Notes under the pieces: model-generated
Seen by the model: only the letters and a program-made list of their open reading frames with translations
Database searches by the model: none
Told to the model about the DNA's origin: nothing
Part shown: positions 1 to 15,853 of the stretch, in pieces
Numbering within the stretch: position 1 is the first letter of the stretch
How the letters are laid out: each line of letters opens with the position of its first letter
Virus record (IMG/VR): IMGVR_UViG_2740892219_000014
Reading direction: 5' to 3' (one strand)
DNA from: a virus
Taxonomy: Duplodnaviria > Heunggongvirae > Uroviricota > Caudoviricetes
Length of the DNA stretch: 16,633 nt
Program-made: the position numbers and the translations under genes

Positions 1-348
1 CTACTGCATACGGCGCTGTTGCTGCTTTTCTGTATGCACGCGTTTTACTATCTTATAAATCCATTGCAGCGTCAGATTATATTTCTTCGCTAATTCGGCG
101 TAGTTGCGCCCATCGCACTCGCTGTAGATTTGATAGTCCCGCTCCGAGGCTCGCCTGGCGATTCCTTTTGGAAAATAAATGCTTTGTCCGCCCCAGTTTC
201 GCATCATGCGATCGGCAATGGCATAGCCAACATTTTCCGCAGATGAGCTATCCAGATTGATGCTCTCAATCAGAACTTGCGAAGCATGAAACGCCAAATC
301 GTTAATGATCTCCGGTGTCCGGGTCATCTCTTTTGCTTTTTGTATCAT
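1..348 (-). CDS. Mor/C-family transcriptional activator (Mu middle/late operon regulator family)
   Basis: 115-aa ORF with stop at 1-3 and ATG at 346-348; GGAG RBS upstream on minus strand. C-terminal GGQSIYFPKG...DGRNYAELAKKYNLTLQWIYKIVKR matches the Mor/C pattern (GGQ-IY-P-G followed by a C-terminal HTH ending YKI/YKA-RR). Divergent from the lysis/tail operon. Confidence 0.8.
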   Translation of the reverse strand: MIQKAKEMTRTPEIINDLAFHASQVLIESINLDSSSAENVGYAIADRMMRNWGGQSIYFPKGIARRASERDYQIYSECDGRNYAELAKKYNLTLQWIYKIVKRVHTEKQQQRRMQ

Positions 349-567
349 TTTTCATCTCCATATATCTTGCACCCTGTATGGACTCTGATGTGAGTTACAC
401 CACGGATATCCGCTAAGTTGGTGCAATTACTGCTTTTCAATACATTCAACACGCAAATAAATAATCACAATGTATATGCAATAAAAATTAAAACGAATTA
501 TAAATTCACAAAACAAATATATTATTTTCATTACATGTCTTATCAACAGGAGTGCCATTTTACACGA

Positions 568-587
568 TACTGTATACATACACAGTG
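568..587. promoter_or_regulatory. Putative LexA (SOS) box TACTGTATACATACACAGTG
   Basis: CTGT-N8-ACAG palindrome with 17/20 matches to the E. coli consensus TACTGTATATATATACAGTA, both half-sites intact. Lies in the AT-rich divergent intergenic region; a TTGAAA -35-like hexamer sits on the minus strand at 613-618, oriented toward the Mor-like gene, with the -10 ambiguous. Confidence 0.6.
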
Positions 588-903
588 CTATTTATCATTT
601 TTATCGCCTACTTTTCAAAAAGCTCGTTTCCCTCACAGTCGAGGATTTTTTTAAACAAACTTTAAAAATCAAATAAGTAACGACCATGATTGCAATATGT
701 CATCCCCTTCATTACACATAACGCAGGATTTATCTAACTAGCAGCCATTTTATCCTTAGTTCTCTATTTTGAGTTGGGAGATTAATTGGCGAACATGTTA
801 ATTCGAAGAGAACACATTTTTTAAAGTTATTTATTAAAGCTTTTTTCATTCTTCAGCAAAGAGATAAGCAGACACTGGTATCTCACTTATCAGGAGATAT
901 CGT

Positions 904-1191
904 ATGAAAAAAATCACTTTTCCCCGTCTTTCCGGTTGGCTGGCTGCAGCCATTGCTCTGATTGCATTAATCGGCTGGACATCTTCAGCACAAATTCCGG
1001 TCGTCATTTATAAACTAAGCCTGGTTTCACTTTCTGCAGTGCTGGGATACTGGCTCGATCGTAGTTTGTTCCCCTGGGCACGGCCTGACTTTTTTTGCCC
1101 CAGAAAGGAACCGCGTTGCTACGCAGCGGCAATGATTCGTCGCGCCATCATCGTGGCTGCAGTCTGCCTTTCCGTCGCGTTAGGGCTATAG
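904..1191 (+). CDS. Small hydrophobic membrane protein, putative holin
   Basis: 95-aa ORF with AGGAG RBS (892-896) 7 nt before the ATG; 2-3 hydrophobic segments and a charged C-terminal region; its stop TAG (1189-1191) abuts the start of the downstream endolysin gene. Function inferred from position and topology only. Confidence 0.45.
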   Translation: MKKITFPRLSGWLAAAIALIALIGWTSSAQIPVVIYKLSLVSLSAVLGYWLDRSLFPWARPDFFCPRKEPRCYAAAMIRRAIIVAAVCLSVALGL

Positions 1192-1193
1192 TG

Positions 1194-1799
1194 ATGTGGC
1201 TAAAATATATCGCGCTTATGATTATTTTCGTTCTTTTCCCGCTTAACGCGTCTGAACCACCACAAGCCTCTCTGGCATGGAGAAATGAATTGATTCGTAC
1301 CGCCCGAGAAGTCTGGGGACTGAACGCTCCGGTGGCTGACTTTGCCGGGCAATTACACCAGGAGTCCGCCTGGCAGCCAATGGTACGCTCCCCCGTTGGC
1401 GCACAAGGTATGGCGCAATTTATGCCTGCCACAGCGACATGGATAAGCCAACTGTATCCACAGCTACATGAAAACAAACCGTATAACCCAACCTGGGCAA
1501 TCCGGGCGTTGGTACAGTACGACCAGCATTTATGGAACAACATCTCTGCAAAAAATGATTGTCAACGTATGGCGTTTACTCTAAGCGCCTATAACGGTGG
1601 TCAGGGTTGGATTAACCGGGATAAAAAACTGGCGACAACAAAAGGGTTAAATGCCGCCATCTGGTTTGGTCATGTTGAGCAAGTCAACGCCGGGCGCAGC
1701 GCCGCAAACTGGCGAGAAAATCGTCACTATCCGAAGATGATTCTCTATCAACACGCCGCCCGCTACTTACTCTGGGGACAGGCAAGCTGTCTTCACTAA
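1194..1799 (+). CDS. Endolysin, lytic transglycosylase (SLT domain) with N-terminal signal or signal-anchor
   Basis: 201 aa from ATG 1194. N-terminal hydrophobic stretch MWLKYIALMIIFVLFPLNA; the three SLT motifs are present in order: catalytic E-S (QLHQESAWQP), GxxQ (GAQGMAQFMP), AYNxG (LSAYNGGQG). Confidence 0.8.
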   Translation: MWLKYIALMIIFVLFPLNASEPPQASLAWRNELIRTAREVWGLNAPVADFAGQLHQESAWQPMVRSPVGAQGMAQFMPATATWISQLYPQLHENKPYNPTWAIRALVQYDQHLWNNISAKNDCQRMAFTLSAYNGGQGWINRDKKLATTKGLNAAIWFGHVEQVNAGRSAANWRENRHYPKMILYQHAARYLLWGQASCLH

Positions 1800-1811
1800 T
1801 CAGAGGGGCCG

Positions 1812-2126
1812 ATGAAACTCAGTATCGATTTTTGGGAAGTGATCTCCTTTATGCTTTCATTCGTTGGATTAATGTTTGCTGCCGGAAAATTGCTGTTAGC
1901 GCAAATTGAAAAAAGACTTAATGAGCGTTTTGAGTCCCTGGAAAATGCCCGCAGGGAATCAGAAACAAGCTGGTCGAAACTGGAAAGAGAATTTCTCGAA
2001 TTTCGTGCCGAACTTCCACTGTATTATGTCCGCAGAGAGGATTATCTTCGTGGACAAGCAGTATTAGAAGCAAAGCTGGATGCCTTATATAGCAAAATAG
2101 AGTTATTACAACGTGGCAGTTATTAA
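1812..2126 (+). CDS. Membrane-anchored coiled-coil protein of the lysis cassette (possible spanin-like or Mu gp25-like)
   Basis: 104 aa with GAGGGG RBS; N-terminal TM helix (ISFMLSFVGLMFAAGKLLL) followed by a charged heptad-like segment; sits directly after the endolysin and before a terminator. Functional class is inference. Confidence 0.4.
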   Translation: MKLSIDFWEVISFMLSFVGLMFAAGKLLLAQIEKRLNERFESLENARRESETSWSKLEREFLEFRAELPLYYVRREDYLRGQAVLEAKLDALYSKIELLQRGSY

Positions 2127-2130
2127 ATAC

Positions 2131-2164
2131 ATCCCCACCTTTACGTAAGTGTGGGGATTTTTTA
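2131..2164 (+). terminator. Rho-independent terminator after the lysis cassette
   Basis: ATCCCCAC (2131-2138) pairs with GTGGGGAT (2151-2158) around a palindromic TTACGTAA loop, followed by a run of six T; located 5 nt after the stop of the 1812-2126 gene. Confidence 0.7.
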
Positions 2165-2271
2165 TAACCATTCAATTTTTTCTCTAAATCACATTAAAAG
2201 ATTCTTCACTCTCACTGCTTCAGAATACATTTCAACGATAACGAAGTGAGCGGTAATAAGGTACACCTCAT

Positions 2272-2727
2272 ATGAAAGTTTTATCTGTAATGAATTATGT
2301 CGTGGTCAGATTACGTGATCGGCATCCTGAAATGGACATATTCATTTCATCTACGGATGCCCAAAAATATATTCCACAGACACAACAGATTACGGTGATT
2401 ATTAATTATAGCGGTTCTGTCTTCACCACGCCCGAAAGTAGTGATGCCATTGTACAACAGCAAATACTCCGCTTAACCGCCACCGTTATTGTTGGCAAAA
2501 ATTGTGATGCGTTAAACGCACTTGATCACATACGCAGCGCATTGGGAGGCCTTCAGCCTCCTGATTGCGATCATCTTATTTGGCTTGAAAAAGAAATTAA
2601 TACGGGTGAGAGCGACGGTTTCTGCCGCTACATCCTGGAAATGGCGACCAGCTCGCTGTTTATCGCTGAACAGGACAGCACGGATCTTCCCCTGCTTACT
2701 GAAGTTAATTACGAGGAAACTGAATGA
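2272..2727 (+). CDS. Phage virion protein, Mu gp37-like (putative tail completion or terminator protein)
   Basis: 151-aa ORF at the position Mu gene K (gp37) occupies immediately upstream of the sheath gene; its stop overlaps the next ATG (ATGA). Start codon uncertain (ATG 2272 or 2290). Family assignment from synteny and size, not a strong motif. Confidence 0.45.
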   Translation: MKVLSVMNYVVVRLRDRHPEMDIFISSTDAQKYIPQTQQITVIINYSGSVFTTPESSDAIVQQQILRLTATVIVGKNCDALNALDHIRSALGGLQPPDCDHLIWLEKEINTGESDGFCRYILEMATSSLFIAEQDSTDLPLLTEVNYEETE

Positions 2728-2921
2728 AATATATCTACAACGGTCCGGCAAGCGGCGTCACCCTTGCCGACGGTCAAGAAATCTTATTATGGCCGAACAG
2801 TGAAATTGATCTGCCAGAAGACAATGAGTGGGTTATGACCATGATTGCCCGAAATCACTTGATTCTCATCATCCCCCAGGAAGAACAAAATAACGTAGAG
2901 GAAATTGTACATGGCAGCTAA
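2724..2921 (+). CDS. Small phage protein, Mu gp38-like, translationally coupled between gp37-like and sheath
   Basis: 65 aa with GAGGA RBS (2714-2718); start overlaps the upstream stop and its end overlaps the sheath start by 11 nt; acidic; syntenic with Mu gp38. Confidence 0.4.
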   Translation: MKYIYNGPASGVTLADGQEILLWPNSEIDLPEDNEWVMTMIARNHLILIIPQEEQNNVEEIVHGS

Positions 2922-4332
2922 TTATCTGCACGGTGTAGAAACCATTGAAATTGAAACCGGCCCGCGTCCGGTAAAAGCAGTAAAATCAGCTGTAATCGCT
3001 TTAATCGGTACCGCTCCCTGTGGCCCGGTAAACCAACCGACGCTGTGCCTTTCTGAAAGTGACGCGGCACAGTTTGGATCGATTCAGGCTAACTTTACGA
3101 TCCCGCAGGCGCTGAAGGCGATTTATGATCACGGTGCCGGTACAGTGGTGGTAATTAATGTGCTGGATCCAGTAAAACATGGACTACACATTACCAATGA
3201 AACCATTACGTTCAATAGTGACGATAAAGCTAAATTAGCTCATCCGGGGGTAAGTTCGGTAACGCTAAGAGCAAGTATCAGTTCCACTACATACAAAAAT
3301 ACATCATACAGCGTTAATGCCGCTGACGGCGTTATTACCCGTACAGGAACTGAAATTGCGGCAGGAGCAAAGGTTTACGCGACTTATACCTATGTTGACC
3401 CTACAAAGGTCACCGCAGCCGATATTATCGGGGCCGTTAATACCGCAGGCGATCGCACGGGGATGAGGCTCCTTCAGGACACTTATAACTTGTATGGTTT
3501 CTACGCCAAAATTCTGCTGGCACCCGTTTTTTGTACGCAAAAATCAGTGACTACCGAGCTGATTGCACAAGCGGAAAAACTCGGTGCGATTACCTACATT
3601 GATGCCCCAATTGGGACTACATTCCAGCAGGTATTGGCTGGACGCGGTTCGCAAGGCGCAATCAACTTCAATACCAGCTCTGATCGTGCACGTTTATGCT
3701 ACCCACACGTCAAAGTTTACGATGGCATCACTAACCAGGAAATTCTTGAACCTCTCTCTTCGCGCGCTGCCGGGCTACGTGCCAAAGTAGACCTCGAAAA
3801 AGGTTTCTGGTGGAGCAACTCAAACCAGGAAATTCAGGGTATTACCGGTATCGAACGTTCGCTTTCCGCAATGATTGATGATCCACAAAGCGAAGTGAAT
3901 CAGCTCAACGAAAACGGTATTACCACTATTTTCAATAGTTATGGTTCTGGTCTGCGCCTGTGGGGCAACCGCACAGCGGCATGGCCAACCGTGACTCATA
4001 TGCGTAACTTTGAAAACGTTCGCCGGACAGGCGATGTAATTAATGAGTCAATCCGTTATTTCAGTCAACAGTATATTGATATGCCGATCAATCAGGCACT
4101 GATTGACGCGCTGACCGAATCGGTAAATACCTGGGGCCGAAAACTGATTGCCGACGGCGCACTGCTTGGCTTTGAGTGCTGGTACGATCCGGCGCGAAAT
4201 TCACCGGCTGAACTCAGTGCCGGGCATTTATTGCTCAGCTATAAATTTACCCCACCGCCGCCGCTGGAACGTCTGACGTTTGAAACTGAAATTACCTCTG
4301 AATATTTAGTCTCTCTGGAGAGCAATCGCTAA
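2911..4332 (+). CDS. Contractile tail sheath protein (Mu gpL / P2 FI family)
   Basis: 473 aa from ATG 2911 (GAGGA RBS 2898-2902; the track's TTG at 2905 is less likely). N-terminus MAANYLHGVETIEIETGPRPV is typical of sheath proteins; size and position directly upstream of the tube gene fit. Confidence 0.9.
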   Translation: MAANYLHGVETIEIETGPRPVKAVKSAVIALIGTAPCGPVNQPTLCLSESDAAQFGSIQANFTIPQALKAIYDHGAGTVVVINVLDPVKHGLHITNETITFNSDDKAKLAHPGVSSVTLRASISSTTYKNTSYSVNAADGVITRTGTEIAAGAKVYATYTYVDPTKVTAADIIGAVNTAGDRTGMRLLQDTYNLYGFYAKILLAPVFCTQKSVTTELIAQAEKLGAITYIDAPIGTTFQQVLAGRGSQGAINFNTSSDRARLCYPHVKVYDGITNQEILEPLSSRAAGLRAKVDLEKGFWWSNSNQEIQGITGIERSLSAMIDDPQSEVNQLNENGITTIFNSYGSGLRLWGNRTAAWPTVTHMRNFENVRRTGDVINESIRYFSQQYIDMPINQALIDALTESVNTWGRKLIADGALLGFECWYDPARNSPAELSAGHLLLSYKFTPPPPLERLTFETEITSEYLVSLESNR

Positions 4333-4856
4333 TGGCTGGAAAAATTCAAATTAACCGTATTACCAACGCCAATATTTATCTCGATGGTAATAATCTTTTA
4401 GGCCGTGCAACAGAAATTAAATTGCCAGATGTCAGTTTAATTATGCAGGAACATAAAGCACTGGGCATGGTGGGTAAAATAGAACTCCCGGCTGGTTTCG
4501 ATAAACTGGAGGGGGAAATTAAATGGAACTCCTTTTACCAGGACGTAATGCGTAAAACGGCAAACCCGTGGCAGGCTGTAGCATTACAGTGTCGCTCCAG
4601 TATTGATTGTTATAACTCTCAGGGGAAAGCGAATCAATTAGCGTTAGTCACACATTTAACCGTGATGTTTAAAAAAAATCCACTGGGCACATTTAAACAG
4701 AATGAAAACCCGGAATTCAGCAGCGCCTTTGGCTGCACTTATATTAAACAAGTAGTCGATGGTGAAACGCTGCTTGAACTGGATTATATGGCGAATATTT
4801 TCCGCGTTAACGGCGTGGATCAATTAAGTACCTATCGCAATAACATCGGTGGCTAA
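4332..4856 (+). CDS. Tail tube protein (Mu gpM / P2 FII family)
   Basis: 174 aa; start overlaps the sheath stop (TAATG). N-terminus ...NANIYLDGNNLLGRATEIKLP and C-terminus ...NIFRVNGVDQLSTYRNNIGG closely resemble the P2 FII tube pattern (NLFxDGxN ... VNGVDxLxxxRxNIG). Confidence 0.9.
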   Translation: MAGKIQINRITNANIYLDGNNLLGRATEIKLPDVSLIMQEHKALGMVGKIELPAGFDKLEGEIKWNSFYQDVMRKTANPWQAVALQCRSSIDCYNSQGKANQLALVTHLTVMFKKNPLGTFKQNENPEFSSAFGCTYIKQVVDGETLLELDYMANIFRVNGVDQLSTYRNNIGG

Positions 4857-4862
4857 GTTATT

Positions 4863-4878
4863 CGGGGCTACGGCCCCG
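4863..4878 (+). other. GC-rich hairpin (CGGGGC-TACG-GCCCCG) right after the tube gene
   Basis: Perfect 6-bp GC stem with tetraloop 7 nt after the tube stop; no T-run follows, so more likely an RNA stability or attenuation element than a full terminator. Confidence 0.35.
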
Positions 4879-4906
4879 AACTCCGCAAAATAAATAAGGA
4901 TACAAA

Positions 4907-5224
4907 ATGAAAGAGCATTATATCTTACAGTTTCCCTTTACGTCGGCAGCAGGAAATAATATCGACACGCTACAATTACGTCGCCTGAAAGTCAAAGATA
5001 TGCGTAATGCACGCCGGGTCAGCGAAAAGCCGGAAGAATGGGATGAACCGCTAATGGCAGCGATGACCGGGCTGGTACCAGAAGATTTAGCTGAAATGGA
5101 TTTGCTGGATTACCAGGCGTTGCAGAAACGATTTCAATCCATGCTTACCGTGGCTACAGAATCCCCCCTTGCTATGGCAGGCAATGGCGCTACTGGCGAG
5201 ATGGTTTCGCTTTCCACCCAGTGA
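4907..5224 (+). CDS. Tail assembly chaperone (P2 gpE / Mu gp41 position), short in-frame product
   Basis: 105 aa, acidic, with AAGGA RBS; located between the tube and tape-measure genes, as for tape-measure chaperones. Confidence 0.7.
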   Translation: MKEHYILQFPFTSAAGNNIDTLQLRRLKVKDMRNARRVSEKPEEWDEPLMAAMTGLVPEDLAEMDLLDYQALQKRFQSMLTVATESPLAMAGNGATGEMVSLSTQ

Positions 5225-5312
5225 GATTGACGCTCTAACGATAGATGACTTTAGTCACTGGCTGGATGAAGCCAGCGCTCAAATAAAAATCGAATATGAC
5301 TCGCAGACCTGA
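5163..5312 (+). other. Putative programmed frameshift site (C6 run) and +1-frame extension giving a longer chaperone isoform
   Basis: The +1 frame (equivalent to -2) is open from 5055 to a TGA at 5310-5312, overlapping the chaperone 3' end; UCC_CCC_CUU at 5162-5170 would let tRNA-Pro re-pair 2 nt back; the extension reads ...PPSEIDALTIDDFSHWLDEASAQIKIEYDSQT. The -1 frame closes almost immediately. Confidence 0.45.
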
Positions 5313-5412
5313 TGTCTGCGAGTTCTTCAAAGCCCGCCAGGTTTATTTCTTCCCAGCCCATTTTTCAGAAAACTAACCAGCGGGCCATCACCAATCTATA
5401 AGAGAAACAATT

Positions 5413-7788
5413 TTGGCCAACGATATTATTACCCAGCTTCAGGCGCGTAATGAGACGTTGACGCAGGCAATAGCCCGTTACGGCTCACTCAACGCCAGAA
5501 CATTGTTAGCACTCTCTTCTCAGCAAGCGACAGTAATCAAACTAACGCAGCAACTTGCCGATTCCGCTCTCCGCCTGGAGGAAAATAGCCGAAACCGCGC
5601 TGATCTGATGGAGAAAACCCAAACATTTGCTGGGCAATTTAGCAAAGTATTCAATGTTGAAGTCCCTGACTGGAAGTTGCCGTATGAGTTTCAGGACAAC
5701 ATGGTCAATTTGGCGACCAAAGGTGGGATGAATGATACAACCCGCGAGACACTCAGCCTTAATCTGCGCGACTGGAGCATGGATTTTAACCAGCAGCAGA
5801 CCACCTTACAGAACGCAGCCCAGGTGCTAATCGAAGGTAATTTGTCGTCGATGCAGGATCTCAACCGTTATATGCCGGAGCTCGCCAAAGCGGCCACCAC
5901 CACGCGCGAAAGTGCTGAAACATGGGCGAATGCCGCGCTCGCGACTCATGATCGACTGAATATTGCGCCAGAAAATTTCCACGCCGCGCAAAACATGATG
6001 TACGGCATTAGCAAAAACGGTGGGCCTACCGTTGCCGGGCAAACACAGTGGATAGACAAATTTGCAGTTAAAACTGGCGCACAGGGTTTAGAAGGTATGG
6101 CTGAACTGACCGCCACAATGCAGATCGCAATGAAAAATGGTGCCAGCGCCAGTGTGGCGGCGGAGAATTTCGACCACTTTCTGCAAACCATCTTTTCGAA
6201 AAAAACCGATAACTGGTTCGTCAGCCAGGGCGTCGATCTGCAAGGCTCTTTGCTTGAACATCAGCAAAACGGCATGGGTGTTAGCGAAGCCATGATTCAT
6301 ATCGTGCAAACGCAACTTGAGAAGATGAATCCGGCGATCCTCGACACCTTCAAACGCACCATGCAAATTGAAGATTTATCTGCTCGCAGCAACGCACTGC
6401 AATCGATGGTGACGCAATTTAATCTGGGCGAAATGTTCGGCGATGCGCAAACAGTGGAATTCCTGGCACCTGTGCTGGCGAATATGGAAGAGTATCGCCA
6501 GTTAAAAGCATCCGCCATGCAAGACAGCGGTAAGAATATGATTGACAACGATTTTTCTGTGCAGATGGCCTCGCCCATTGAACAAACTAAAACGTTACAA
6601 CTGGCGTTAAATGATTTATGGCTCAGCATTGGCTTGCAATTAATGCCGCTGATTGGCGAGTTGGCGCAAAGCCTTACTCCGGTGATTCGCCAGTTCAGCG
6701 CCTGGCTACGTGAACACCCGGCGCTGGTGCAAAACATTGCGAAAATCGTCGGAGCGATTTGGCTGTTTAACGGCGCACTGAATGTTTTAAAGCTGGGCGC
6801 GAACGTCATCGCCTCGCCGTTTATTCGTCTGGTCGATATCTTCCTGAAAGTCAGGGCAAGTCTGACGCTCACAGGCGCGGCAAGTAAGATGCTATCAGCG
6901 GTTAATTCATTATATAACGGCGCAAAATGGCTAACGCAACTGCTTGGCCGTGGCCTGATTGGCGCATTGAAACTGGCAGGTCAGACCGTCTTCTGGTTGG
7001 GTAGAGTTTTATTGATGAATCCTATTGGTCTGGTCATCACCGCGATTGCGGGCGCTGCTTATCTGATCTATCGCCACTGGGAACCTATCTCCAGATTCTT
7101 TTCCGCCATCTGGCAACGTATCACCACGGCCTTTGACGGCGGCATTGCAGGGATTTGCCGGTTAATTCTCGACTGGTCGCCGCTGGAGTTGTTCTACAAC
7201 GCCTTTTCCAGTGTGATGAATTGGTTTGGTGTCGAGATGCCTGCAAGTTTTAGCGAGTTCGGCAGCAATCTTCTGGGCAGTCTGGTTGACGGCATAATGA
7301 ATGCTTTCCCCGCTCTGAAAGGCATTATTGATCAGGTCAAAAACGCCTTACCGGACTGGCTAAAAACCACGATGGGTATTAGCACAGAAGGATCGGCTAC
7401 GGCTGTTACAAGCACGACGAATACCGCATCAATCTCCCCCACGACCGTTGTTCCAGGCGTTGCCGGAGCGATTTTAACGCCTCCTGTGGGCAAACAACTC
7501 GCGCCATCCAGTAAAACGACAACGTCGCCATCGACACCAGCGGAAAAAAATACAGCCGCCAAACCCGCATCGGCTTCTTTACCTGGTAAATCTGTAACCA
7601 AACCGGCGACGCTCCCCTCCCGTTCCTCTGGAAAAGTTCAGGTGAATTTTTCGCCACAAATTACCGTGCAGAGTAACGGACAAAACACCACTAAAGACAT
7701 TCAGAACGTGTTGACGATAAGTAAACGCGAACTGGAAAGAATGATTAACGACGTAATGGCGCAACAACAGCGCCGGGGGTATGCCTGA
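5413..7788 (+). CDS. Tail tape measure protein
   Basis: 791 aa; helical Q/A/L-rich N-terminal half, hydrophobic glycine-rich segments in the middle, and a Ser/Thr/Pro-rich low-complexity C-terminal region; sits after the chaperone gene. Apparent TTG start at 5413 (no in-frame ATG or GTG after the upstream stop at 5374-5376). Confidence 0.85.
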   Translation: MANDIITQLQARNETLTQAIARYGSLNARTLLALSSQQATVIKLTQQLADSALRLEENSRNRADLMEKTQTFAGQFSKVFNVEVPDWKLPYEFQDNMVNLATKGGMNDTTRETLSLNLRDWSMDFNQQQTTLQNAAQVLIEGNLSSMQDLNRYMPELAKAATTTRESAETWANAALATHDRLNIAPENFHAAQNMMYGISKNGGPTVAGQTQWIDKFAVKTGAQGLEGMAELTATMQIAMKNGASASVAAENFDHFLQTIFSKKTDNWFVSQGVDLQGSLLEHQQNGMGVSEAMIHIVQTQLEKMNPAILDTFKRTMQIEDLSARSNALQSMVTQFNLGEMFGDAQTVEFLAPVLANMEEYRQLKASAMQDSGKNMIDNDFSVQMASPIEQTKTLQLALNDLWLSIGLQLMPLIGELAQSLTPVIRQFSAWLREHPALVQNIAKIVGAIWLFNGALNVLKLGANVIASPFIRLVDIFLKVRASLTLTGAASKMLSAVNSLYNGAKWLTQLLGRGLIGALKLAGQTVFWLGRVLLMNPIGLVITAIAGAAYLIYRHWEPISRFFSAIWQRITTAFDGGIAGICRLILDWSPLELFYNAFSSVMNWFGVEMPASFSEFGSNLLGSLVDGIMNAFPALKGIIDQVKNALPDWLKTTMGISTEGSATAVTSTTNTASISPTTVVPGVAGAILTPPVGKQLAPSSKTTTSPSTPAEKNTAAKPASASLPGKSVTKPATLPSRSSGKVQVNFSPQITVQSNGQNTTKDIQNVLTISKRELERMINDVMAQQQRRGYA

Positions 7789-8950: not shown

Positions 8951-9978
8951 GCGTATCTGGTGGCGTCTTTGCCACACTCGCGCCCATTTTTACCCTTTGG
9001 TATGGGCATAAAGATATCACTTATGACATCACGCCCTATGTCACCAGCATCAGTTACCACGACAGCATCAAAAACGAGTCAGATACCATCGCCATTACAC
9101 TGGATGACACCGATGGACGTTGGATAAAAGAGTGGTATCCCGGCAAAGGCGATACGCTGGCGCTGCATATGGGTTATCAGGGGGAGACGCTCCTCGATTG
9201 CGGTCAGTATATTATTGATAAAATTGATATTTCATCACCACCTTCCACGGTAAATATTGATGGCATTGCCACTTCCGTCAATCAGGCGCTGCGTACCCGT
9301 AACAGTCAGGGCTTTGAAGAAACGACGCTTTCGGCCATCGCCAGTCGTATCGCGCAAACTCACGGTCTGAAGCTGGTGGGCAAAATCGAGCCGCTGGCGA
9401 TTGACCGGGTGACACAGTACGGCGAAACCGATGTTGGATTTCTCAAGCGTCTGGCCAGCGAATATGGCTATACCGTGAAAGTGACGACAAAAGAGCTGAT
9501 TTTTTCACATCTGCCGACACTACGCTGCCTGGCGCCAGTGAAAACCATCGACCGCAAAGAGGTTTCGCACTTTACCTTCAAAGACACCATTAATCGCATC
9601 TACAAGAACGCCACCGTACAGCATCAAAATAGTAAGAAAAAAGAACTGGTTATCTACACTCACGACAGCCAGCAAAAACCGTCAGCCCGTGGAGTCGGCA
9701 CCAGTGCCGACACGTTGAAACTCAACAGCCGGGCGACGGATGTTGGCGCGGCACAGGCAAAGGCCAACGCTGCACTCGACAGCCACAACGAATATCAGCA
9801 AACCGGAACACTCAGGATGATGGGCTGCCCGGAACTGACAGCAGGCAATAAAATCGAACTCATTGATTTTGGTATTCTTTCTGGACAATGGCTGATTGAT
9901 AAATCTACTCACAGTTTTGTGCGCAGCGGCTATACCACTGAAATCGACGTTTCGCGCGGGCCAGCAACCAGCCAGTAA
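8938..9978 (+). CDS. Baseplate hub / late control gene D-like protein (P2 gpD, Mu gp44 family)
   Basis: 346 aa with GGAG RBS; start overlaps the gpX-like 3' end; size and position (after U/X, before the spike) fit the gpD family. Confidence 0.8.
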   Translation: MAEISVSGGVFATLAPIFTLWYGHKDITYDITPYVTSISYHDSIKNESDTIAITLDDTDGRWIKEWYPGKGDTLALHMGYQGETLLDCGQYIIDKIDISSPPSTVNIDGIATSVNQALRTRNSQGFEETTLSAIASRIAQTHGLKLVGKIEPLAIDRVTQYGETDVGFLKRLASEYGYTVKVTTKELIFSHLPTLRCLAPVKTIDRKEVSHFTFKDTINRIYKNATVQHQNSKKKELVIYTHDSQQKPSARGVGTSADTLKLNSRATDVGAAQAKANAALDSHNEYQQTGTLRMMGCPELTAGNKIELIDFGILSGQWLIDKSTHSFVRSGYTTEIDVSRGPATSQ

Positions 9979-9987
9979 GGAGGCACT

Positions 9988-10647
9988 ATGAAGGGAGTAA
10001 CCCGGCAAACGGGGATTATCAGCGATATTGACGAAACCAGCGTTCGGGTGCGAGTCACACTGCCAGAGTGCGACAATCTGAAGAGTAACTGGCTTGCGGT
10101 ACTTCAACGTAATTCCCAGGACAATAAAGACTACTGGCTACCGGATATGGGTGAGCAGGTGGAAGTTCTGCTGGACGACAACGGCGAAGATGGCGTGGTA
10201 CTTGGGGCCGTTTATTCTACGGTTGACACCGCGCCTGTGGCCTCGCGAGATAAACGTTACGTCCAGTTTTCTGATGGCGCAGCGTTTGAATATGACCGCA
10301 GCACACACCAGCTTACGATTAACGGCGGTATTGAGAAAATCGTGATTGAGGTTATTGACCGTACTAACCTGACATCACCCAACGTTGAGGTTAAAGCCCA
10401 ACAGGTCACCGTGACTTCCGATACCGTCGATATTAAAGCGACGGCAGTGACGGTAGATGCGCCCATGAGCACCTTTACTGGTAACGTCACGGTAATGAAA
10501 AAACTCACCTGGCTGGGTGGCATGGCAGGAAGTGGAGGCATCGGTAACGCCGCCACGATAACTGGCAATGTCAATGTGATTGGTAACGTTCAGGCCAGCG
10601 GCACATTGCAGGATAGCGGTGGTAACTCAAATCACCATTCACACTAG
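9988..10647 (+). CDS. Baseplate central spike (P2 gpV / Mu gp45 family)
   Basis: 219 aa with a perfect AAGGAGG RBS; N-terminal OB-fold-like region, a middle region of repeated short beta-strand motifs (VTVTSDTVDIKATAVTVDA...), a glycine-rich section and a C-terminal NHHSH tip, as in gpV-type spikes with a metal-binding apex. Confidence 0.85.
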   Translation: MKGVTRQTGIISDIDETSVRVRVTLPECDNLKSNWLAVLQRNSQDNKDYWLPDMGEQVEVLLDDNGEDGVVLGAVYSTVDTAPVASRDKRYVQFSDGAAFEYDRSTHQLTINGGIEKIVIEVIDRTNLTSPNVEVKAQQVTVTSDTVDIKATAVTVDAPMSTFTGNVTVMKKLTWLGGMAGSGGIGNAATITGNVNVIGNVQASGTLQDSGGNSNHHSH

Positions 10648-10653
10648 CTTTTA

Positions 10654-10682
10654 ACCCGCCTGATGGCGGGTTTTCTCTTTTT
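10654..10682 (+). terminator. Rho-independent terminator-like hairpin after the spike gene
   Basis: ACCCGCC-TGAT-GGCGGGT stem-loop followed by TTTTCTCTTTTT, starting 7 nt after the gpV-like stop; leaves a roughly 60-nt spacer before the gpW-like gene. Confidence 0.55.
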
Positions 10683-10745
10683 AATCAATCAGTTTTCTAA
10701 ATCGCTTTAATATCCCCACTGTCCGTTCAGGGCGAAAATAAGCAC

Positions 10746-11105
10746 ATGAACACAAAAACACGCCCCTCAACGCTGCACTGGCAACCCGCCTTGCAGCGGC
10801 CTGAAGAATACGTCTGCGGACTGGATGATATTCACCAGGCAATACACATCATTCTGCGCACGCCGCGCGGCAGTGATCCCCACAGACCGCTGTTTGGCAG
10901 CAACTTGTGGCACTACATCGATTACCCCATCGAGCGGGCAATCCCGCATGTGGTACGGGAGTCGGTGGAAGCCATCCGCCAGTGGGAACCGCGATGTCGG
11001 TTGCTGAAGGTAGCACCGATAATCGACGGTGAACATCTGACGTTACGTGTGCAATGGCGCGCCGCTGACGGCGTAATCAACTCAACGGAGGTGTTATGGC
11101 GATAG
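10746..11105 (+). CDS. Baseplate protein W (GPW/gp25 family)
   Basis: 119 aa; IHIILRTPRGSDPHRPLFGSNLWHYID ... WEPR matches the GPW/gp25 signature (ILxTxxGE/S...P.FGS.L...D...WEPR). Confidence 0.75.
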   Translation: MNTKTRPSTLHWQPALQRPEEYVCGLDDIHQAIHIILRTPRGSDPHRPLFGSNLWHYIDYPIERAIPHVVRESVEAIRQWEPRCRLLKVAPIIDGEHLTLRVQWRAADGVINSTEVLWR

Positions 11106-12211
11106 CCGAACCCGATTTTATTGACCGCGATCCTGCGCAAATTACCAGCGAGATGATTGCGCAATACGAAGATGCCAGCGGTAAAAAACTCTATCCGGCA
11201 CAGGCCGAACGGTTACTCATCGACCTGTTTGCCTATCGTGAAAACCTTGTGCGCATCGCCATTCAGGAAGCGGCGAAACAAAACCTGGTCGCGTATTCCC
11301 GCGCACCAATGTTGGATTATTTAGGGGAGCTGGTGGGTGTTCACCGTTTACCTGCGCAACCGGCAAAAACGACGTTGCAGTTTTCGGTCGTCAGTGCGTA
11401 TACCAGCAATATCCTGATTCCCCAGGGGACGCGGGCCAGTGCCTCTGACAGCGTGATGTTCGCCACCGATGAAGATGTTCTGCTTCCGGCCAGGAGTTTG
11501 CATATCGCCGTTCCGGCCACCAGCCTCGCAGTAGGTGAACAGGGCAATGGCTGGCAGCCTGCACAGATTAGCGCCCTTGTTGACAGGATCGGTTATTACG
11601 ATATCAACGTGACTAATCTGACTCCCACAACCGGCGGTTGTGGTGAAGAGAACGATGATGCACTACGCCAGCGTATACAACTGGCGCCAGAAAGCTTCAG
11701 TAATGCCGGCAGCTATGGCGCATATCGCTTTCATACACTTTCGGTTAGCCAGTCAATTATTGACGTTACAGTACTGGGGCCAGATGAAGGGTTGCCAGAA
11801 GGCTGCGTCGAGCTCTACCCGCTAACCCTGAATGGTCTGCCAGGAACCGAGCTACTCGCGCAAATTGAACAAGAAGTGAGTAAAGAGAAAAAACGTCCGC
11901 TGACTGACAAAGTAAGTGCGAAATGTGCTCTTAGGGTGCCGTATGAAATTCGTGCGCAGCTAACGCTGTTTACCACCGCCGATCAGGAGACAACACTGGC
12001 TGCGGCGCGTAAAGCGATTAGCCTCTGGACGCAACAGCGGCAGAAACATCTGGGGCAGGACATTGTGCCAAACCAGATAATCAAAGTGTTACAAGTCGAT
12101 GGCGTCTATGACGTTGTGCTGAACATGCCTACAAAACGTATTTTGCAGGCGCATGAATGGGCGGAATGCACTGTAATAGACGTCACGATTGCCGGAGTCA
12201 GCGATGGATAA
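11096..12211 (+). CDS. Baseplate wedge protein J (P2 gpJ / Mu gp47 family)
   Basis: 371 aa; start overlaps the gpW-like stop; DDALRQRIQLAPESFSNAGSYGAYRFHTLS resembles the conserved gpJ core; sits in the gpW-gpJ-gpI order. Confidence 0.85.
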   Translation: MAIAEPDFIDRDPAQITSEMIAQYEDASGKKLYPAQAERLLIDLFAYRENLVRIAIQEAAKQNLVAYSRAPMLDYLGELVGVHRLPAQPAKTTLQFSVVSAYTSNILIPQGTRASASDSVMFATDEDVLLPARSLHIAVPATSLAVGEQGNGWQPAQISALVDRIGYYDINVTNLTPTTGGCGEENDDALRQRIQLAPESFSNAGSYGAYRFHTLSVSQSIIDVTVLGPDEGLPEGCVELYPLTLNGLPGTELLAQIEQEVSKEKKRPLTDKVSAKCALRVPYEIRAQLTLFTTADQETTLAAARKAISLWTQQRQKHLGQDIVPNQIIKVLQVDGVYDVVLNMPTKRILQAHEWAECTVIDVTIAGVSDG

Positions 12212-12920
12212 ATTGCTGCCACCGCCGCCGCTTGCCAGCGATGAGCGTTTTTCAACTCTGGCAAATATCGCCGCCGAACGTTTTGCGCAACTCGATCTGA
12301 CGGCATTAATGATATACCTGGTCGACCTGGTTGATGCTTCGGCATTACCTGCCCTTGCAGAACAATTTCACGTTCAGGGGCTGGAAGGTTGGTTATTTAC
12401 TACTGATGAACAAGAGAAGCGTGAGTTAATTAAGCAAGCCATTGAGTTACATAAATATAAAGGAACAGTTTGGGCGGTACGGCGAGTACTGGAAATACTC
12501 TCATTGCCTGGAACTATTGCCGAATGGTTTGAATATGGCGGGAAAGCTTATTTTTTTAAGGTTGATATTACACTAGAGGAAAAAGGGTTAAATGAAGATG
12601 AATTTAATGCACTTATCACATTAATTCATGAATATAAAAATGTTCGTTCAAAACTGGAAAGTATTGTTATTTGGCTTATTAATCAAAGCTCAATACCAGT
12701 TATTGGCAGTGCCATGCAAGGAGGGGAAATCATTACAGTATTGCCTCCTGTTGCAGAAAGTATCAGCCAATCATCAAGAATATTTTTAGCGACAGGTTAT
12801 TGTGTAGAGGAATATATCCAACTACTACCTTATCAACCTGATCGCCTTACACAATCCCAACCGATGAAAATCGGTACAGGATACTGGAGCACCGAAATTA
12901 TGTCTGTATACCCGGAGTAA
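12204..12920 (+). CDS. Baseplate/tail protein I-like (P2 gpI / Mu gp48 position) with an AT-rich C-terminal extension
   Basis: 239 aa from ATG 12204 (GGAG RBS; ATGGATAA overlap with the gpJ-like stop; the track's TTG at 12189 is less likely). N-terminus [16 protein letters not shown] fits the gpI type; the 3' half (about 12480-12920) is markedly AT-rich compared with neighbours. Confidence 0.65.
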
Positions 12921-12922
12921 TA

Positions 12923-14671
12923 ATGGCAAGTGAATTTTTTACAATATTAACTGCTGCAGGCAAAACCCAAATTGCCTCAGCACTGGCGGAGCAAAAACAG
13001 ATCCGTCTGCAAACTATGGTAGTTGGCGATGGCAACGGTAAATATATCGAACCGACAGAAATCCAGACCAAAGTAGTCCATGAGGTCTGGCGTGGTCAGC
13101 TCAATACATTAAAAATTGCGCCAGATAATCCGGCCTGGGTTATCGCAGAAGCGATTATTCCCGAAGAGGTTGGAGGCTGGTATGTTCGCGAAGTTGGGTT
13201 GCTGGATACCGACGGCACGCTGGTCGCTATTGGTAAATTCCCTGAAACCTATAAACCACAATTACCTGCAGGTGCCAGTAAGCAAATTGTTATACGCGCA
13301 GTGATGGAAGTGACAAATGCGGATGTGGTGACGCTGTTGATAGATCCTTCAGTTGTTATGGCAACCAGGGAATATGTCGATGACACGCTGAAAGCACATC
13401 AGCAATCACGAAATCATCCTGATGCAACACTGACGCAGAAAGGTTTCACGCAACTGAGTAATGCAACTAATAGCGATGATGAAACCAAAGCGGCCACACC
13501 AAAAGCAGTAAAAACCGCATATGACCTGGCAAATAGCAAAGCCGCCACCAGCCATACTCATGGCTGGAATCAGATAACCAGTATCCCTGACGGTACGCTG
13601 GCGCAGAAAGGGATTGTGAAGCTTAACAGTACCACAAACAGCACCAGCACAACGGAAGCTGCAACACCGAGCGCGGTGAAGGCGGCAATGGATAAGGCTA
13701 CTGCGGCTGCACCAGCAAGCCATACCCACACCTGGGGACAAATCACTGGTATCCCCGACGCCACGCTGACGCAAAAAGGAATTGTGAAGCTTAACAGTAC
13801 CACAAACAGCACCAGCACGACGGAAGCTGCAACACCGAGCGCGGTGAAGGCGGCAATGGATAAGGCTATTGCGGCAGCACCAGCAAGTCATACCCACGCC
13901 TGGGGACAAATCACTGGTATCCCCGACGCCACGCTGACGCAAAAAGGAATTGTGAAACTTAACAGTACCACAAACAGCACCAGCACGACGGAAGCTGCAA
14001 CACCGAACGCGGTGAAGGCAGCAATGGATAAGGCTATTGCGGCGGAAAACTGTCCCGTAGGTATGCCTATTCCCTGGCCGTCTGATTCTGTACCTTCAGG
14101 CTATGCGCTGATGACAGGACAAACATTCAATAAAACCTCCTATCCCAAACTGGCGATTGCATATCCATCTGGTGTCATTCCTGATATGCGTGGATGGATA
14201 ATTAAAGGGAAACCGGCCAGTGGGCGCACAGTATTATCAACTGAACTGGATGGAGTTAAATCACATAACCATACGGGCAGTATTTCTAGTACGGATTTAG
14301 GGACAAAAACCACAGCCCTCACAGACTTGGGGACTAAAACTACATCAGCATTTAACCATGGTAATAAAACAACAAGTTCATCTGGCACAGTCTCGGCAAC
14401 TGCAACTGTAAGAACAGGGACATCTTCGCCAGAGGGCCAAGCCGACTGGACATCATATGGCCCTGGAACCGGATCATCTTTGACTATTAATGTTCCATCA
14501 CACGCCCATAGTATTACAATTGGTTCCCATTCCCACACTGTTGCACTCGGCACCCATTCGCATTCAATTGCCCTTGGTTCCCATAACCACTCCCTAACCA
14601 TTAATAATACAGGCCCCCCCGAAAACACCGTTAAAAATATCGCATTCAACTATATTGTGAGGCTAGCATGA
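12923..14671 (+). CDS. Tail fiber protein (P2 gpH / Mu S type) with collagen-like repeats and a His-x-His tip
   Basis: 582 aa. Conserved N-terminal baseplate-attachment region (HEVWRGQLN...[38 protein letters not shown]...[48 protein letters not shown]); three 56-aa tandem repeats ([36 protein letters not shown]...); a C-terminal array of H-x-H motifs; and a terminal ...[15 protein letters not shown]. Confidence 0.9.
13553..14045 (+). repeat. In-frame 168-nt tandem repeat, about 2.9 copies, inside the tail fiber gene
   Basis: Copies begin at 13553, 13721 and 13889 (period exactly 168 nt); copies 2 and 3 are nearly identical at the nucleotide level and copy 1 is more diverged; a degenerate partial copy lies upstream at about 13425-13552. 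Confidence 0.85.
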
Positions 14672-15375
14672 ATACTTTTACCTTTTCCGATGAAGCTCAA
14701 ATACTGACTGTTTATAATTTTTCACAAGACTCCCGAGAATATATTGGTGAGTCTGATGCATACATTGCGCCTAATACAGGCTTACCAAATTTTTGCACAT
14801 TAATTTCACCTCCCAAAAAGGTTCCTGGTTTTACTCCTGTTTGGGAGAGTGAAACATGGGGACTTATTGAAGATCATCGAGGCCAAACAGTTTATAACAA
14901 AGTTGATGGCAGCCAGACTATTATTAATAAATTGGGTCAATTGCCTGAAACTGTCACAATTATTTCCCCTACCAGTACTTTTGAGCGTTGGGATGGCGAA
15001 AAATGGCAGCCATCACTTGATGATGCTAAACAGGCGATATATGCCGAAATCAAAAACCTGCGCGATTCTGCCATCGCCGATTACATCATCATCAACGCTC
15101 ATCACTTCCACAGTGATACAAATAGCCGAATACAACAACTCTCACTCACAAAAATGGGAGCCGAAAAACAAATTCCGCCAGGTTTAATGTGGAAAACTAA
15201 AAATAACGGTCTGATTGAGTTAACCAACGAAATCGCCGCCCAGTTTGAATCGGTAACAATAGATCACGATATGCGCCTGTTTGCCAACGCCCAGCGCCAT
15301 ATTGCGGCGGTGGAAACTCTGGGCGATATTCAGGCAGTGCTCGACTACGACTACTCCACAGGCTGGCAACCATGA
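14668..15375 (+). CDS. Tail fiber assembly protein (Tfa, chaperone for the fiber tip)
   Basis: 235 aa; start overlaps the fiber stop (ATGA). N-terminal region ...[34 protein letters not shown]...[20 protein letters not shown]...[13 protein letters not shown]...WDGEKW resembles lambda/P2-type Tfa N-domains; the C-terminal half is divergent. Confidence 0.8.
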
Positions 15376-15827
15376 GTAAAACCACTGTCTGGCTCGCTTG
15401 CTATAAAGGCCGAACAGAGCACCGGGGTATTGCGCAACTAGCTGACTGGCTTACCCGTAAAATCACACGCGGCAGTTATTCCCACTGCGAGTTAGCAGTG
15501 GTATATGGTGAAAAAAATTACCTTTGTTACTCTGCATCACTGCGCGATCGCGGTGTACGCGGAAAGATAATGCCACTACCGTCAGATAAGTGGGATATGC
15601 TGCCGCTCCAGGCTAGCGTTCAGGATGTGGAAGCTTTTTTCCATAAACATAATGGCAAAAAATACGACTGGCGCGGAGCCTTAGGAATTATCACAGGCAA
15701 TAAAGAACAGCGCGATCGTCTGTTCTGCAGTGAATTTTGCGCCGAGTTTCTACAGTTAAAAGAGAGTTGGCGCTATTCCCCAAACCATTTGTATGCTTTA
15801 GTCAGCAGTTGGCAATATCAGCCGTAA
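15372..15827 (+). CDS. Hypothetical 151-aa protein coupled to tfa; possible permuted papain-like (NlpC/P60 YaeF/LRAT-like) hydrolase or acyltransferase
   Basis: ATG overlaps the tfa stop (ATGA), so it is the last gene of the tail operon. An N-proximal His (SYSHCELAVVYG) and a C-proximal Cys in a CSEF context (RLFCSEFCAEF) tentatively fit a permuted His...Cys papain-like arrangement. It is real as an ORF; the function is weakly supported. Confidence 0.5.
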   Translation: MSKTTVWLACYKGRTEHRGIAQLADWLTRKITRGSYSHCELAVVYGEKNYLCYSASLRDRGVRGKIMPLPSDKWDMLPLQASVQDVEAFFHKHNGKKYDWRGALGIITGNKEQRDRLFCSEFCAEFLQLKESWRYSPNHLYALVSSWQYQP

Positions 15828-15832
15828 AATAA

Positions 15833-15853
15833 CGCCGGGCATCACGCCCGGCG
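15833..15853. terminator. Hairpin shared by the convergent gene ends; likely terminator for the minus-strand gene
   Basis: CGCCGGGC-ATCAC-GCCCGGCG stem-loop between the plus-strand stop (15825-15827) and the minus-strand stop (15842-15844, inside the loop); on the minus strand it is followed by TTATTTTAC, whereas on the plus strand no T-run follows. Confidence 0.55.

What the first reader, a model, noticed from the sequence alone, without database searches (positions are those of the whole stretch)
1..15827. Contractile-tail cluster with a lysis cassette but no capsid or packaging genes: candidate Mu-type tailocin
The window encodes an activator, a holin-like protein, an endolysin, and a complete contractile tail (sheath, tube, chaperone, tape measure, hub, spike, wedge, fiber, fiber chaperone) in Mu gene order. 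No terminase, portal, protease/scaffold, major capsid or head-completion ORF appears anywhere in 16.6 kb. In Mu those genes lie between the lysis genes and gene K/L; here that junction (2127-2271) holds only a terminator and a short spacer. Lysis plus tail without head is the defining architecture of R-type tailocins, which have arisen independently from P2-like and Mu-like phages. The alternative is a prophage with its capsid module deleted or located elsewhere.
Basis: partly seen in the sequence, partly recalled or inferred. Interest (0 to 1): 0.85.

Follow-up and report, generated by a model that had tools for sequence, protein, structure and literature searches.

The report
Headless phage-tail weapon cluster, SOS-wired
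This Escherichia albertii chromosome segment is a phage reduced to one activator, a cell-lysis cassette and a complete contractile tail, kept intact by selection at the same chromosomal site in several enteric genera (including Salmonella), so it is most likely an uncharacterised DNA-damage-induced "tailocin" that kills rival bacteria.

Summary
Window 1-15827 encodes a Mor-family activator, a holin, an SLT endolysin, a membrane protein and a complete contractile tail, and no head or packaging gene. Six-frame searches find no remnant of one.

The window is an E. albertii contig, and its flanks are core genes: pgi-lysC on the left, and a nucleotidyltransferase gene, slipin, yjbD and rluF on the right.

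The ancestor is a BcepMu-like transposable phage (Bcepmuvirus), not Mu proper. Every gene is collinear with BcepMu gp01, gp21, gp22, gp25 and gp37-gp51. The early region, the Rz/Rz1 spanins and gp26-gp36 are gone.

The same headless element sits next to lysC in E. coli (152 of 5426 genomes), Salmonella (STM4198-4219), Superficieibacter and Phytobacter. All its genes have dN/dS of 0.01-0.28.

A perfect LexA box lies upstream of Mor only in this lineage. A late-promoter motif shared with BcepMu and PhiKM precedes three gene blocks: the lysis genes, Gp37 through gpV, and gpW through the 151-aa gene. Other BcepMu-like lineages lost the head independently.

Best reading: an SOS → Mor → late-promoter R-type tailocin. 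Particle production and killing are untested. It is a new member of a known kind.

The parts
1..348 (-). Mor/C-family late transcription activator (115 aa); ortholog of BcepMu gp01
   Evidence: PF08765 E=8e-38; phrog_532; 48% identical to BcepMu gp01
557..587 (-). Predicted SOS-controlled Mor promoter: LexA box TACTGTATACATACACAG (568-585) abutting an invariant CATTTTACAC, which reads as a -10-like TAAAAT on the Mor strand
   Evidence: The only match in the window, with 0 expected by chance. Conserved in E. coli, Salmonella, Superficieibacter and Phytobacter, and the only CTGT-N8-ACAG in each 21-kb genome-scan locus (Salmonella's locus has one other). The promoter assignment is inferred.
814..839 (+). 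Candidate Mor-dependent lysis promoter: ACATTTTTTAAAGTTATTTATTAAAG, which contains the late motif in inverted orientation (819-833)
   Evidence: Nearly invariant in six genomes; motif scan
904..1191 (+). Holin (95 aa)
   Evidence: PF13272 E=7e-26; phrog_1528; ortholog of BcepMu gp21
1194..1799 (+). Endolysin: lytic transglycosylase with a hydrophobic N-terminal signal or anchor (201 aa)
   Evidence: PF01464; phrog_669; 54% identical to BcepMu gp22
1812..2126 (+). Membrane-anchored coiled-coil protein (104 aa); ortholog of BcepMu gp25; role unknown; it takes the place where the spanins were lost
   Evidence: tblastn to gp25; phrog_462; dN/dS 0.03-0.06; no link to the Mu gp25 releasin
2133..2165 (+). 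Intrinsic terminator after the lysis genes
   Evidence: Hairpin plus T-run, with compensatory stem changes in Salmonella
2185..2199 (+). Late-promoter motif TAAATCACATTAAAA upstream of the tail genes; it matches the motif upstream of the protease (head) genes of PhiKM and BcepMu
   Evidence: (0.02 expected)
2272..2727 (+). Tail terminator or collar (Gp37 family, 151 aa)
2724..2921 (+). Small conserved protein (65 aa); ortholog of BcepMu gp38
2911..4332 (+). Tail sheath
   Evidence: PF04984 and PF17482; 70-75% identical to BcepMu and PhiKM; pyocin sheath PA0622 E=2e-45
4332..4856 (+). Tail tube
   Evidence: PF04985 E=4e-56
4907..5312 (+). Tail assembly chaperone (4907-5224) plus a conserved extension ORF in the +1 frame (5166-5312, GpE-like)
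   Evidence: PF10109; the extension is conserved as far as BcepMu gp42; weak PF06528 hit
5413..7788 (+). Tape measure protein (791 aa)
   Evidence: PF10145
7788..9978 (+). gpU-like protein, gpX and baseplate hub gpD
   Evidence: PF06995, PF05489, PF05954
9988..10647 (+). Spike gpV
   Evidence: PF04717; TIGR01644
10653..10712 (+). Terminator (10653-10672) followed by a second late-promoter motif, TAAATCGCTTTAATA (10698-10712), upstream of gpW
   Evidence: The same motif lies in the V-W gap of PhiKM, BcepMu and Brenneria.
10746..12920 (+). Baseplate wedge gpW, gpJ and gpI
   Evidence: PF04965, PF04865, PF09684
12923..14671 (+). Tail fibre (582 aa) with a 168-bp tandem repeat at 13581-14043
   Evidence: PF12571, PF03406 (4 stretches), PF07484; TRF; 526-aa alleles in other strains; the tip is about 60% identical to fibres of diverse coliphages
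14668..15375 (+). Tail fibre assembly chaperone
   Evidence: PF02413 and PF14301; phrog_1807 and phrog_105
15372..15827 (+). Conserved 151-aa protein of unknown function; last gene of the element (Salmonella STM4198)
   Evidence: phrog_1128 only; no Pfam or PDB hit. E. coli genomes that lack the element align from 15823 onward.

Best explanation
This is a domesticated, headless derivative of a BcepMu-like transposable phage that works as an R-type tailocin. The proposed sequence of events is as follows. DNA damage leads to LexA cleavage. That de-represses the Mor gene, whose promoter carries a LexA box. Mor then activates three late promoters that share one motif. These drive the lysis genes, the genes from the terminator through the spike, and the genes from the wedge through the fibre. 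Tail particles about 120 nm long assemble; that length is inferred from the 791-aa tape measure. The holin and the SLT endolysin then lyse the producer cell. The released particles bind another enterobacterium through the variable fibre, contract and depolarise it. Four things are shown here: gene content, the absence of head genes, synteny across genera, purifying selection, and conservation of the motifs. Four things are inferred: LexA and Mor binding, particle production, killing, and the target.
For: 1. The tail set is complete and collinear with a functional phage (BcepMu gp37-gp51), including the tail terminator.
2. There are no head, packaging, early or transposase genes or fragments in the window. 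There are none in the same-genome flanks or in E. coli and Salmonella flanks.
3. The same architecture lies directly downstream of lysC in Escherichia, Salmonella, Superficieibacter and Phytobacter, and these form one clade in the sheath tree.
4. dN/dS is 0.01-0.28 for every gene, and dS is comparable to that of flanking core genes. All genes are annotated intact in further E. coli strains.
5. The LexA box is conserved in all six genomes of this lineage. It was not found near Mor in the headless relatives that have a Mor gene in the fetched DNA.
6. The motif TAAA-N5-TTAA[AT]A occurs only three times in the window, each about 50-90 bp upstream of an operon start. In BcepMu and PhiKM it occurs only at late-operon starts.
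7. Head loss recurred independently in Brenneria, Lonsdalea, Paraburkholderia and Chromobacterium/Rivihabitans. In Brenneria and Lonsdalea the promoter motif is kept upstream of Gp37.
8. The fibre is the most variable gene, with repeat-number alleles.
Against: There is no experimental evidence of particles or killing. No paper describing this locus as a tailocin was found; the Salmonella copy is called a phage remnant. The Rz/Rz1 spanins of the parental lysis cassette are missing, and no lipobox ORF exists, so release may be inefficient. Only about 3% of complete E. coli genomes carry the element. One strain has a frameshifted gpI and a broken fibre gene. LexA control of Mor and Mor control of the three promoters rest on sequence conservation only. 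The sheath tree is not fully congruent with the species tree, because the two Superficieibacter copies split, so some inter-genus exchange occurred.
Confidence: 0.68

Rival explanations
1. It is an inert prophage remnant. A BcepMu-like prophage lost its head and early genes by chance, and what is left has no function.
For: It is patchy in E. coli (152 of 5426 genomes). Pseudogenes are present in strain NCTC9699. The spanins are lost. The literature calls the Salmonella copy a phage remnant.
Against: All genes are intact across genera that differ at nearly saturated synonymous sites, with dN/dS of 0.01-0.28. There is no gene debris. Three promoter motifs and a lineage-specific LexA box are retained. 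The element occupies the same locus in at least four genera.
Confidence: 0.1
2. It is a tail donor. The cluster supplies tails to capsids made by another element, such as a BcepMu-like prophage or a head-only element, rather than acting alone.
For: The tail terminator, which forms the docking surface for heads, is retained. BcepMu-like phages infect E. coli and Klebsiella.
Against: The head-tail adaptor gp36 is deleted. No partner element was seen in the flanks. The element has its own lysis and SOS control, which a helper module would not need. Conservation at one locus in genera with different prophage contents argues for autonomous function.
Confidence: 0.07
3. It is a contractile particle or lysis module used for something other than killing bacteria. 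Examples are SOS-triggered altruistic lysis that releases cell contents or vesicles, or action on eukaryotic cells as in eCIS.
For: The lysis genes have their own promoter. The carriers are gut-associated. The function of the 151-aa terminal gene is unknown.
Against: There is no AAA+ ATPase, toxin or effector gene. The fibre tip resembles coliphage receptor-binding fibres. The whole tail, not only the lysis genes, is under purifying selection.
Confidence: 0.1
4. It is a split prophage: the capsid module of the same element lies elsewhere in the chromosome.
For: Only about 8-10 kb of each flank was inspected in the source genome.
Against: The flanks are conserved core genes in three species. 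The deletions are clean and shared by four genera. There is no transposase and there are no phage ends.
Confidence: 0.03

Closest known systems
Burkholderia phage BcepMu, Escherichia phage PhiKM, Klebsiella phage KP12 (genus Bcepmuvirus, Mu-like transposable myophages)
   Same: Orthologs are in the same order for Mor/C (gp01), holin, SLT endolysin, gp25 and gp37 through gp51. Sheath identity is 70-75%. The same late-promoter motif is present.
   Different: The window lacks gp02-gp20 (transposase, repressor, early genes), the Rz/Rz1 spanins and gp26-gp36 (terminase, portal, protease, capsid, adaptor). It has a LexA box that was not seen in the non-class-A loci examined. Its fibre, fibre chaperone and 151-aa terminal gene are different.
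[quoted passage not shown]
   Same: It is a headless contractile tail plus a lysis cassette in the chromosome, induced by DNA damage. It shares the P2-family tail proteins. The sheath matches PA0622 at E=2e-45 and the terminator resembles collar PA0615.
   Different: The pyocin keeps the P2 gene order and is controlled by PrtR/PrtN (general knowledge). Here the order is Mu/BcepMu, the activator is Mor-family and the LexA box is direct.
Mu/SfV-like tailocins: R-syringacin (Rp4) of P. syringae and enterocoliticin of Yersinia enterocolitica
   Same: These tailocins derive from phages with Mu-type tail gene order (PMC4684702; PMC13030884).
   Different: Their proteins resemble Mu or SfV proteins. 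Apart from Mor and short stretches of the spike and fibre, the window's proteins show no detectable similarity to Mu. Their regulators differ (prtR/prtN-like in Rp4).
P2-like tailocins of other bacteria: BceTMilo (Burkholderia) and kosakonicin (Kosakonia)
   Same: The head module was deleted cleanly at the tail/head boundary and the tail genes are strictly conserved (PMC5411513; PMC6629978).
   Different: They have P2 order and use an Ogr or CI-type regulator and integrase. BceTMilo keeps its spanins.
Salmonella Typhimurium LT2 STM4198-STM4219 'phage remnant' carrying gtrABC
   Same: It is the same element at the same lysC site, at 77% DNA identity, with all genes orthologous. STM4215 is PDB 2GJV.
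   Different: The Salmonella copy has the O-antigen glucosylation operon gtrABC inserted between gpV and gpW, just upstream of the retained promoter motif.

Membership tests
R-type tailocin (phage tail-like bacteriocin) | Complete contractile-tail gene set (terminator, sheath, tube, chaperones, tape measure, hub, spike, wedge, fibre, fibre chaperone) | tested here: met
R-type tailocin (phage tail-like bacteriocin) | No capsid, packaging or replication genes in the cluster or adjoining it | tested here: met
R-type tailocin (phage tail-like bacteriocin) | Own lysis genes for release | tested here: met
   Holin and SLT endolysin are present and conserved. The spanins are absent, so completeness of lysis is uncertain.
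R-type tailocin (phage tail-like bacteriocin) | Maintained by selection in the host lineage rather than decaying | tested here: met
   dN/dS 0.01-0.28; same locus in at least four genera
R-type tailocin (phage tail-like bacteriocin) | Stress (SOS) inducibility | tested here: inconclusive
   A conserved perfect LexA box lies upstream of Mor. Binding and induction were not tested.
R-type tailocin (phage tail-like bacteriocin) | Production of headless particles that kill other strains without replicating | not testable with these tools
   Needs induction, EM and killing assays
Bcepmuvirus prophage (BcepMu-like transposable phage) | Transposase and early region, and a head/packaging module | tested here: not met
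   No hit to gp02-gp20 or gp26-gp36, even at E<=1
Bcepmuvirus prophage (BcepMu-like transposable phage) | Homologous, collinear lysis and tail genes | tested here: met
Muvirus (phage Mu proper) tail lineage | Sequence homology to Mu tail proteins | tested here: not met
   Only Mor and short stretches of the spike and fibre match. The gene order is shared.
P2-type tailocin (R-pyocin, kosakonicin, BceTMilo) | P2 gene order (V-W-J-I-H-G ... FI-FII-E-T-U-D) | tested here: not met
   The order here is terminator-sheath-tube-E-T-U-X-D-V-W-J-I-H-G. The protein families are P2-type.
Extracellular contractile injection system (Afp/PVC type) | AAA+ ATPase and toxin or effector cargo | tested here: not met
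   No such family in any ORF. The cap/terminator is phage-type.

The most novel reading that the evidence does not exclude
This would be an overlooked family of tailocins in the best-studied enteric bacteria, including Salmonella LT2, some E. coli and E. albertii. It would derive from a transposable BcepMu-like phage and would have been held at the lysC locus since about the Escherichia-Salmonella split. Its phage repressor circuit would have been replaced by direct host LexA control of a Mor activator. In addition, BcepMu-like phages would have been converted to headless tail elements repeatedly, each time keeping the late promoter. In Salmonella the nested gtrABC operon might serve as self-protection by altering the O-antigen.
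Probability: 0.45. Interest if true: 0.7.

Novelty: new member of a known kind. Interest (0 to 1): 0.55.

Why it matters
If the element is active, E. albertii, a subset of E. coli and much of Salmonella would carry a natural, SOS-induced contractile weapon that has gone unnoticed. This locus has long been annotated as a phage remnant, and one of its proteins was crystallised as a protein of unknown function. An active element would bear on strain competition in the gut. It would also explain why the locus is conserved, and it would offer a new enterobacterial tailocin scaffold with swappable fibres. The several independent head losses in one phage lineage, some of them keeping the late promoter, give a concrete system for studying how phages are domesticated.

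Tried and rejected
1. Pseudomonas relatives as known Rp-type tailocins. Loci that lacked BcepMu-type head hits (for example L066) carry a lambda-type capsid, decoration and protease module, so they are mosaic prophages.

2. The gp25-like protein as a homolog of the Mu gp25 releasin. hhalign gives probability 0.2%, and there is no Pfam hit.

3. A hidden o-spanin. No lipobox ORF is present on the coding strand.

4. The ST131 'tailocin' paper. It describes a P2-like prophage, not this locus.

5. Kosakonicin and BceTMilo. Both are P2-like, not this lineage.

6. A C-run slippery site at 5163-5168 for the chaperone frameshift. It is not conserved in E. coli or Salmonella. The shift site, or separate initiation at ATG 5184, is unresolved.

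7. A sigma-70 promoter at 546-519 for Mor, and rightward promoters at the LexA box. These are poorly conserved. The invariant TAAAAT on the Mor strand fits better.

8. PADLOC on the flanking nucleotidyltransferase, slipin and the 151-aa protein gave no hits.

9. Rfam and tRNA scans found nothing.

10. A profile search of the PDB for Gp37 found only 2GJV. The fold comparison was needed to link it to tail terminators.

11. The relationship to carotovoricin could not be tested, because no sequence was available.


Full report
**What is in the window.**
- A Mor-family activator lies on the minus strand at 1-348.
- On the plus strand come a holin (904-1191), an SLT lytic transglycosylase (1194-1799) and a 104-aa membrane coiled-coil protein (1812-2126).
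- A tightly packed tail cluster follows:
  - Gp37 (2272-2727)
  - a 65-aa protein
  - the sheath and the tube
  - a chaperone with a conserved +1-frame extension
  - the tape measure
  - gpU-like, gpX, hub gpD and spike gpV
  - wedge gpW/J/I
  - the fibre and the fibre chaperone
  - a 151-aa protein of unknown function that ends at 15827
- Gp37 is a close homolog of PDB 2GJV (Salmonella STM4215).
- Gp37 is therefore a tail part, not a head part.

**No head genes, inside or outside the window.**
- tblastn of all 53 BcepMu proteins and the PhiKM head proteins against the window finds nothing for the early genes, the spanins or gp26-gp36, even at E<=1.
- The window is 99.99% identical to a contig of Escherichia albertii. 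The species name comes from source annotations.
- In that genome the cluster is flanked by two runs of host genes, not by a capsid module:
  - Upstream: malF-malG-psiE-yjbT-pgi-lysC.
  - Downstream: a RlaP nucleotidyltransferase gene, slipin, yjbD, rluF and the sorbose operon.
- E. coli NCTC9699 (16 kb flanks) and Salmonella Infantis show the same situation.

**Ancestry.**
- The nearest complete phages are Bcepmuviruses. Sheath identity is 75% to Escherichia phage PhiKM and 70% to BcepMu.
- Every window gene from Mor to gpI has an ortholog in the same order in BcepMu: gp01, gp21, gp22, gp25 and gp37-gp51.
- Phage Mu shares the gene order. It shares no detectable protein similarity except for Mor and short stretches of the spike and fibre.
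- 'Mu-type' should therefore read 'BcepMu-type'.
- Relative to BcepMu, three blocks are gone: the early/transposase/repressor region, the Rz/Rz1 spanins, and gp26-gp36.

**Conservation.**
- The same headless architecture lies immediately downstream of lysC in several taxa:
  - E. coli: 152 of 5426 complete genomes, always on the chromosome
  - Salmonella: LT2 tags STM4198-STM4219
  - two Superficieibacter species and Phytobacter
- These copies form one clade in a sheath tree.
- For all genes, dN/dS is 0.01-0.24 against E. coli and 0.04-0.28 against Salmonella. Synonymous divergence is like that of the flanking core genes.
- Other E. coli strains have every gene annotated intact. NCTC9699 has a frameshifted gpI and a broken fibre gene.
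- In E. coli genomes that lack the element, the alignment starts at 15823, which sets the right boundary. A zeta-toxin gene can occupy the site instead.

**Regulation (inferred).**
- The 555-bp Mor-holin spacer holds a perfect LexA box, TACTGTATACATACACAG, at 568-585.
- It is the only such match in the window, and none is expected by chance.
- It is conserved in all six genomes of this lineage, where it lies 230-290 bp upstream of the Mor start codon.
- In each 21-kb genome-scan locus of this lineage it is the only CTGT-N8-ACAG. The Salmonella locus has one other match, inside the tail cluster.
- It was not found near Mor in the Brenneria, Paraburkholderia, Chromobacterium and Rivihabitans relatives.
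- It abuts an invariant CATTTTACAC, which reads as a -10-like TAAAAT on the Mor strand.
- A motif, TAAA-N5-TTAA[AT]A, occurs three times in the window:
  - upstream of the holin, in inverted orientation (819-833)
  - upstream of Gp37 (2185-2199)
  - upstream of gpW (10698-10712)
- The last two copies follow terminators. About 0.02 matches are expected by chance.
- In BcepMu and PhiKM the same motif occurs only upstream of the holin, upstream of the protease (head) genes and in the V-W gap.
- The junction at 2127-2271 therefore keeps a copy of the late-promoter motif that precedes the head genes in those phages.
- The resulting model is LexA → Mor → three late promoters.

**Recurrent head loss.**
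- Independent BcepMu-like lineages are also headless, each with a different junction:
  - Brenneria and Lonsdalea: gp26|gp37, with the transposase and Rz retained
  - a Paraburkholderia MAG: Rz|gp37
  - Chromobacterium and Rivihabitans: Mor|gp37
- In Brenneria and Lonsdalea the late-promoter motif sits upstream of Gp37.
- This pattern argues that selection favours the tail-plus-lysis form.

**Points against.**
- The spanins are absent, and no lipobox ORF exists.
- The gp25-like protein is not related to the Mu releasin.
- Carriage in E. coli is patchy.
- No experiment shows particles or killing.

**Literature.**
- Searches found no paper that describes this locus as a tailocin.
- Salmonella reviews call it a phage remnant that carries gtr.
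- A 2026 survey of Salmonella T6SS loci set aside unnamed 'tailocin/phage' loci.
- The known tailocins checked belong to other lineages:
  - P2/KL3-like: BceTMilo, kosakonicin
  - Mu/SfV-like: Rp4, enterocoliticin

**Verdict.**
- The element is best read as a candidate SOS-induced R-type tailocin.
- It is a new member of a known kind, and its function is still to be shown.

Noticed in passing
L002 22229-25064 (Salmonella Infantis; LT2 STM4204-4206): The O-antigen glucosylation operon gtrABC is inserted inside the tail cluster, between gpV and gpW. It lies just upstream of the retained late-promoter motif (L002 25180). This raises the idea that it protects the producer from its own particles.
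   Followed up: partly
L014 3058-3984 (E. coli SOI121): In E. coli genomes without the tail cluster, the lysC-nucleotidyltransferase gap can hold a zeta-toxin family gene instead. The site is therefore a variable hotspot.
   Followed up: partly
window 15842-16633(-) and L009 11268-12395(-): A RlaP-family nucleotidyltransferase gene and a slipin gene flank the element. They are present in about 1600 E. coli genomes independently of the tail cluster. PADLOC gave no hit.
   Followed up: partly
L018, L021 (Brenneria); L026, L028, L030 (Lonsdalea); L052 (Paraburkholderia MAG): These BcepMu-like elements are headless but still carry the transposase, the early region and the Rz spanin. They may be younger or still mobile tail-only elements.
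   Followed up: partly
L043, L047-L051, L053, L055, L056 (Chromobacterium); L078 (Rivihabitans): The Mor gene lies directly next to Gp37 and the tail genes, with no lysis cassette between them. Many Chromobacterium contigs break 1.4-2.6 kb upstream of the sheath gene, which suggests a repeat there. In Rivihabitans the wedge genes are inverted and lie upstream of Mor.
   Followed up: no
L028 8520-9140 (Lonsdalea quercina): The gp26-Gp37 gap contains several copies of a roughly 70-bp repeat and a (CCCCGAA)n run before the promoter motif.
   Followed up: no
window 13581-14043: A 168-bp tandem repeat (2.8 copies, 95% matches) encodes Phage_fiber_2 units. Other E. albertii strains have a 526-aa fibre instead of the 582-aa one, and one has a split fibre gene (L008).
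   Followed up: partly
L003 2749-4073 versus L001 5184-12403: The E. albertii locus lacks xylE and yjbEFGH, which in E. coli lie between malG and pgi, on either side of psiE.
   Followed up: no
phage collection records OR845313, OR845696, OR850896, OR850955, OR851066, OR851449: Short unannotated records named 'Escherichia phage ECO95 1-6-1' and 'Salmonella phage S.Kent 1-2-1' are fragments of this tail cluster, at 74-87% DNA identity. A 501-kb Salmonella chromosomal contig is also filed among the phages.
   Followed up: no
window 617-672: A block in the Mor-holin spacer (CAAAAAGCTCGTTTCCCTCACAGTCG ... TTTTTAAACAAACTTTAAAAATCAA) is conserved in Escherichia, Salmonella and Phytobacter but not in Superficieibacter. 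Its function is unknown.
   Followed up: no
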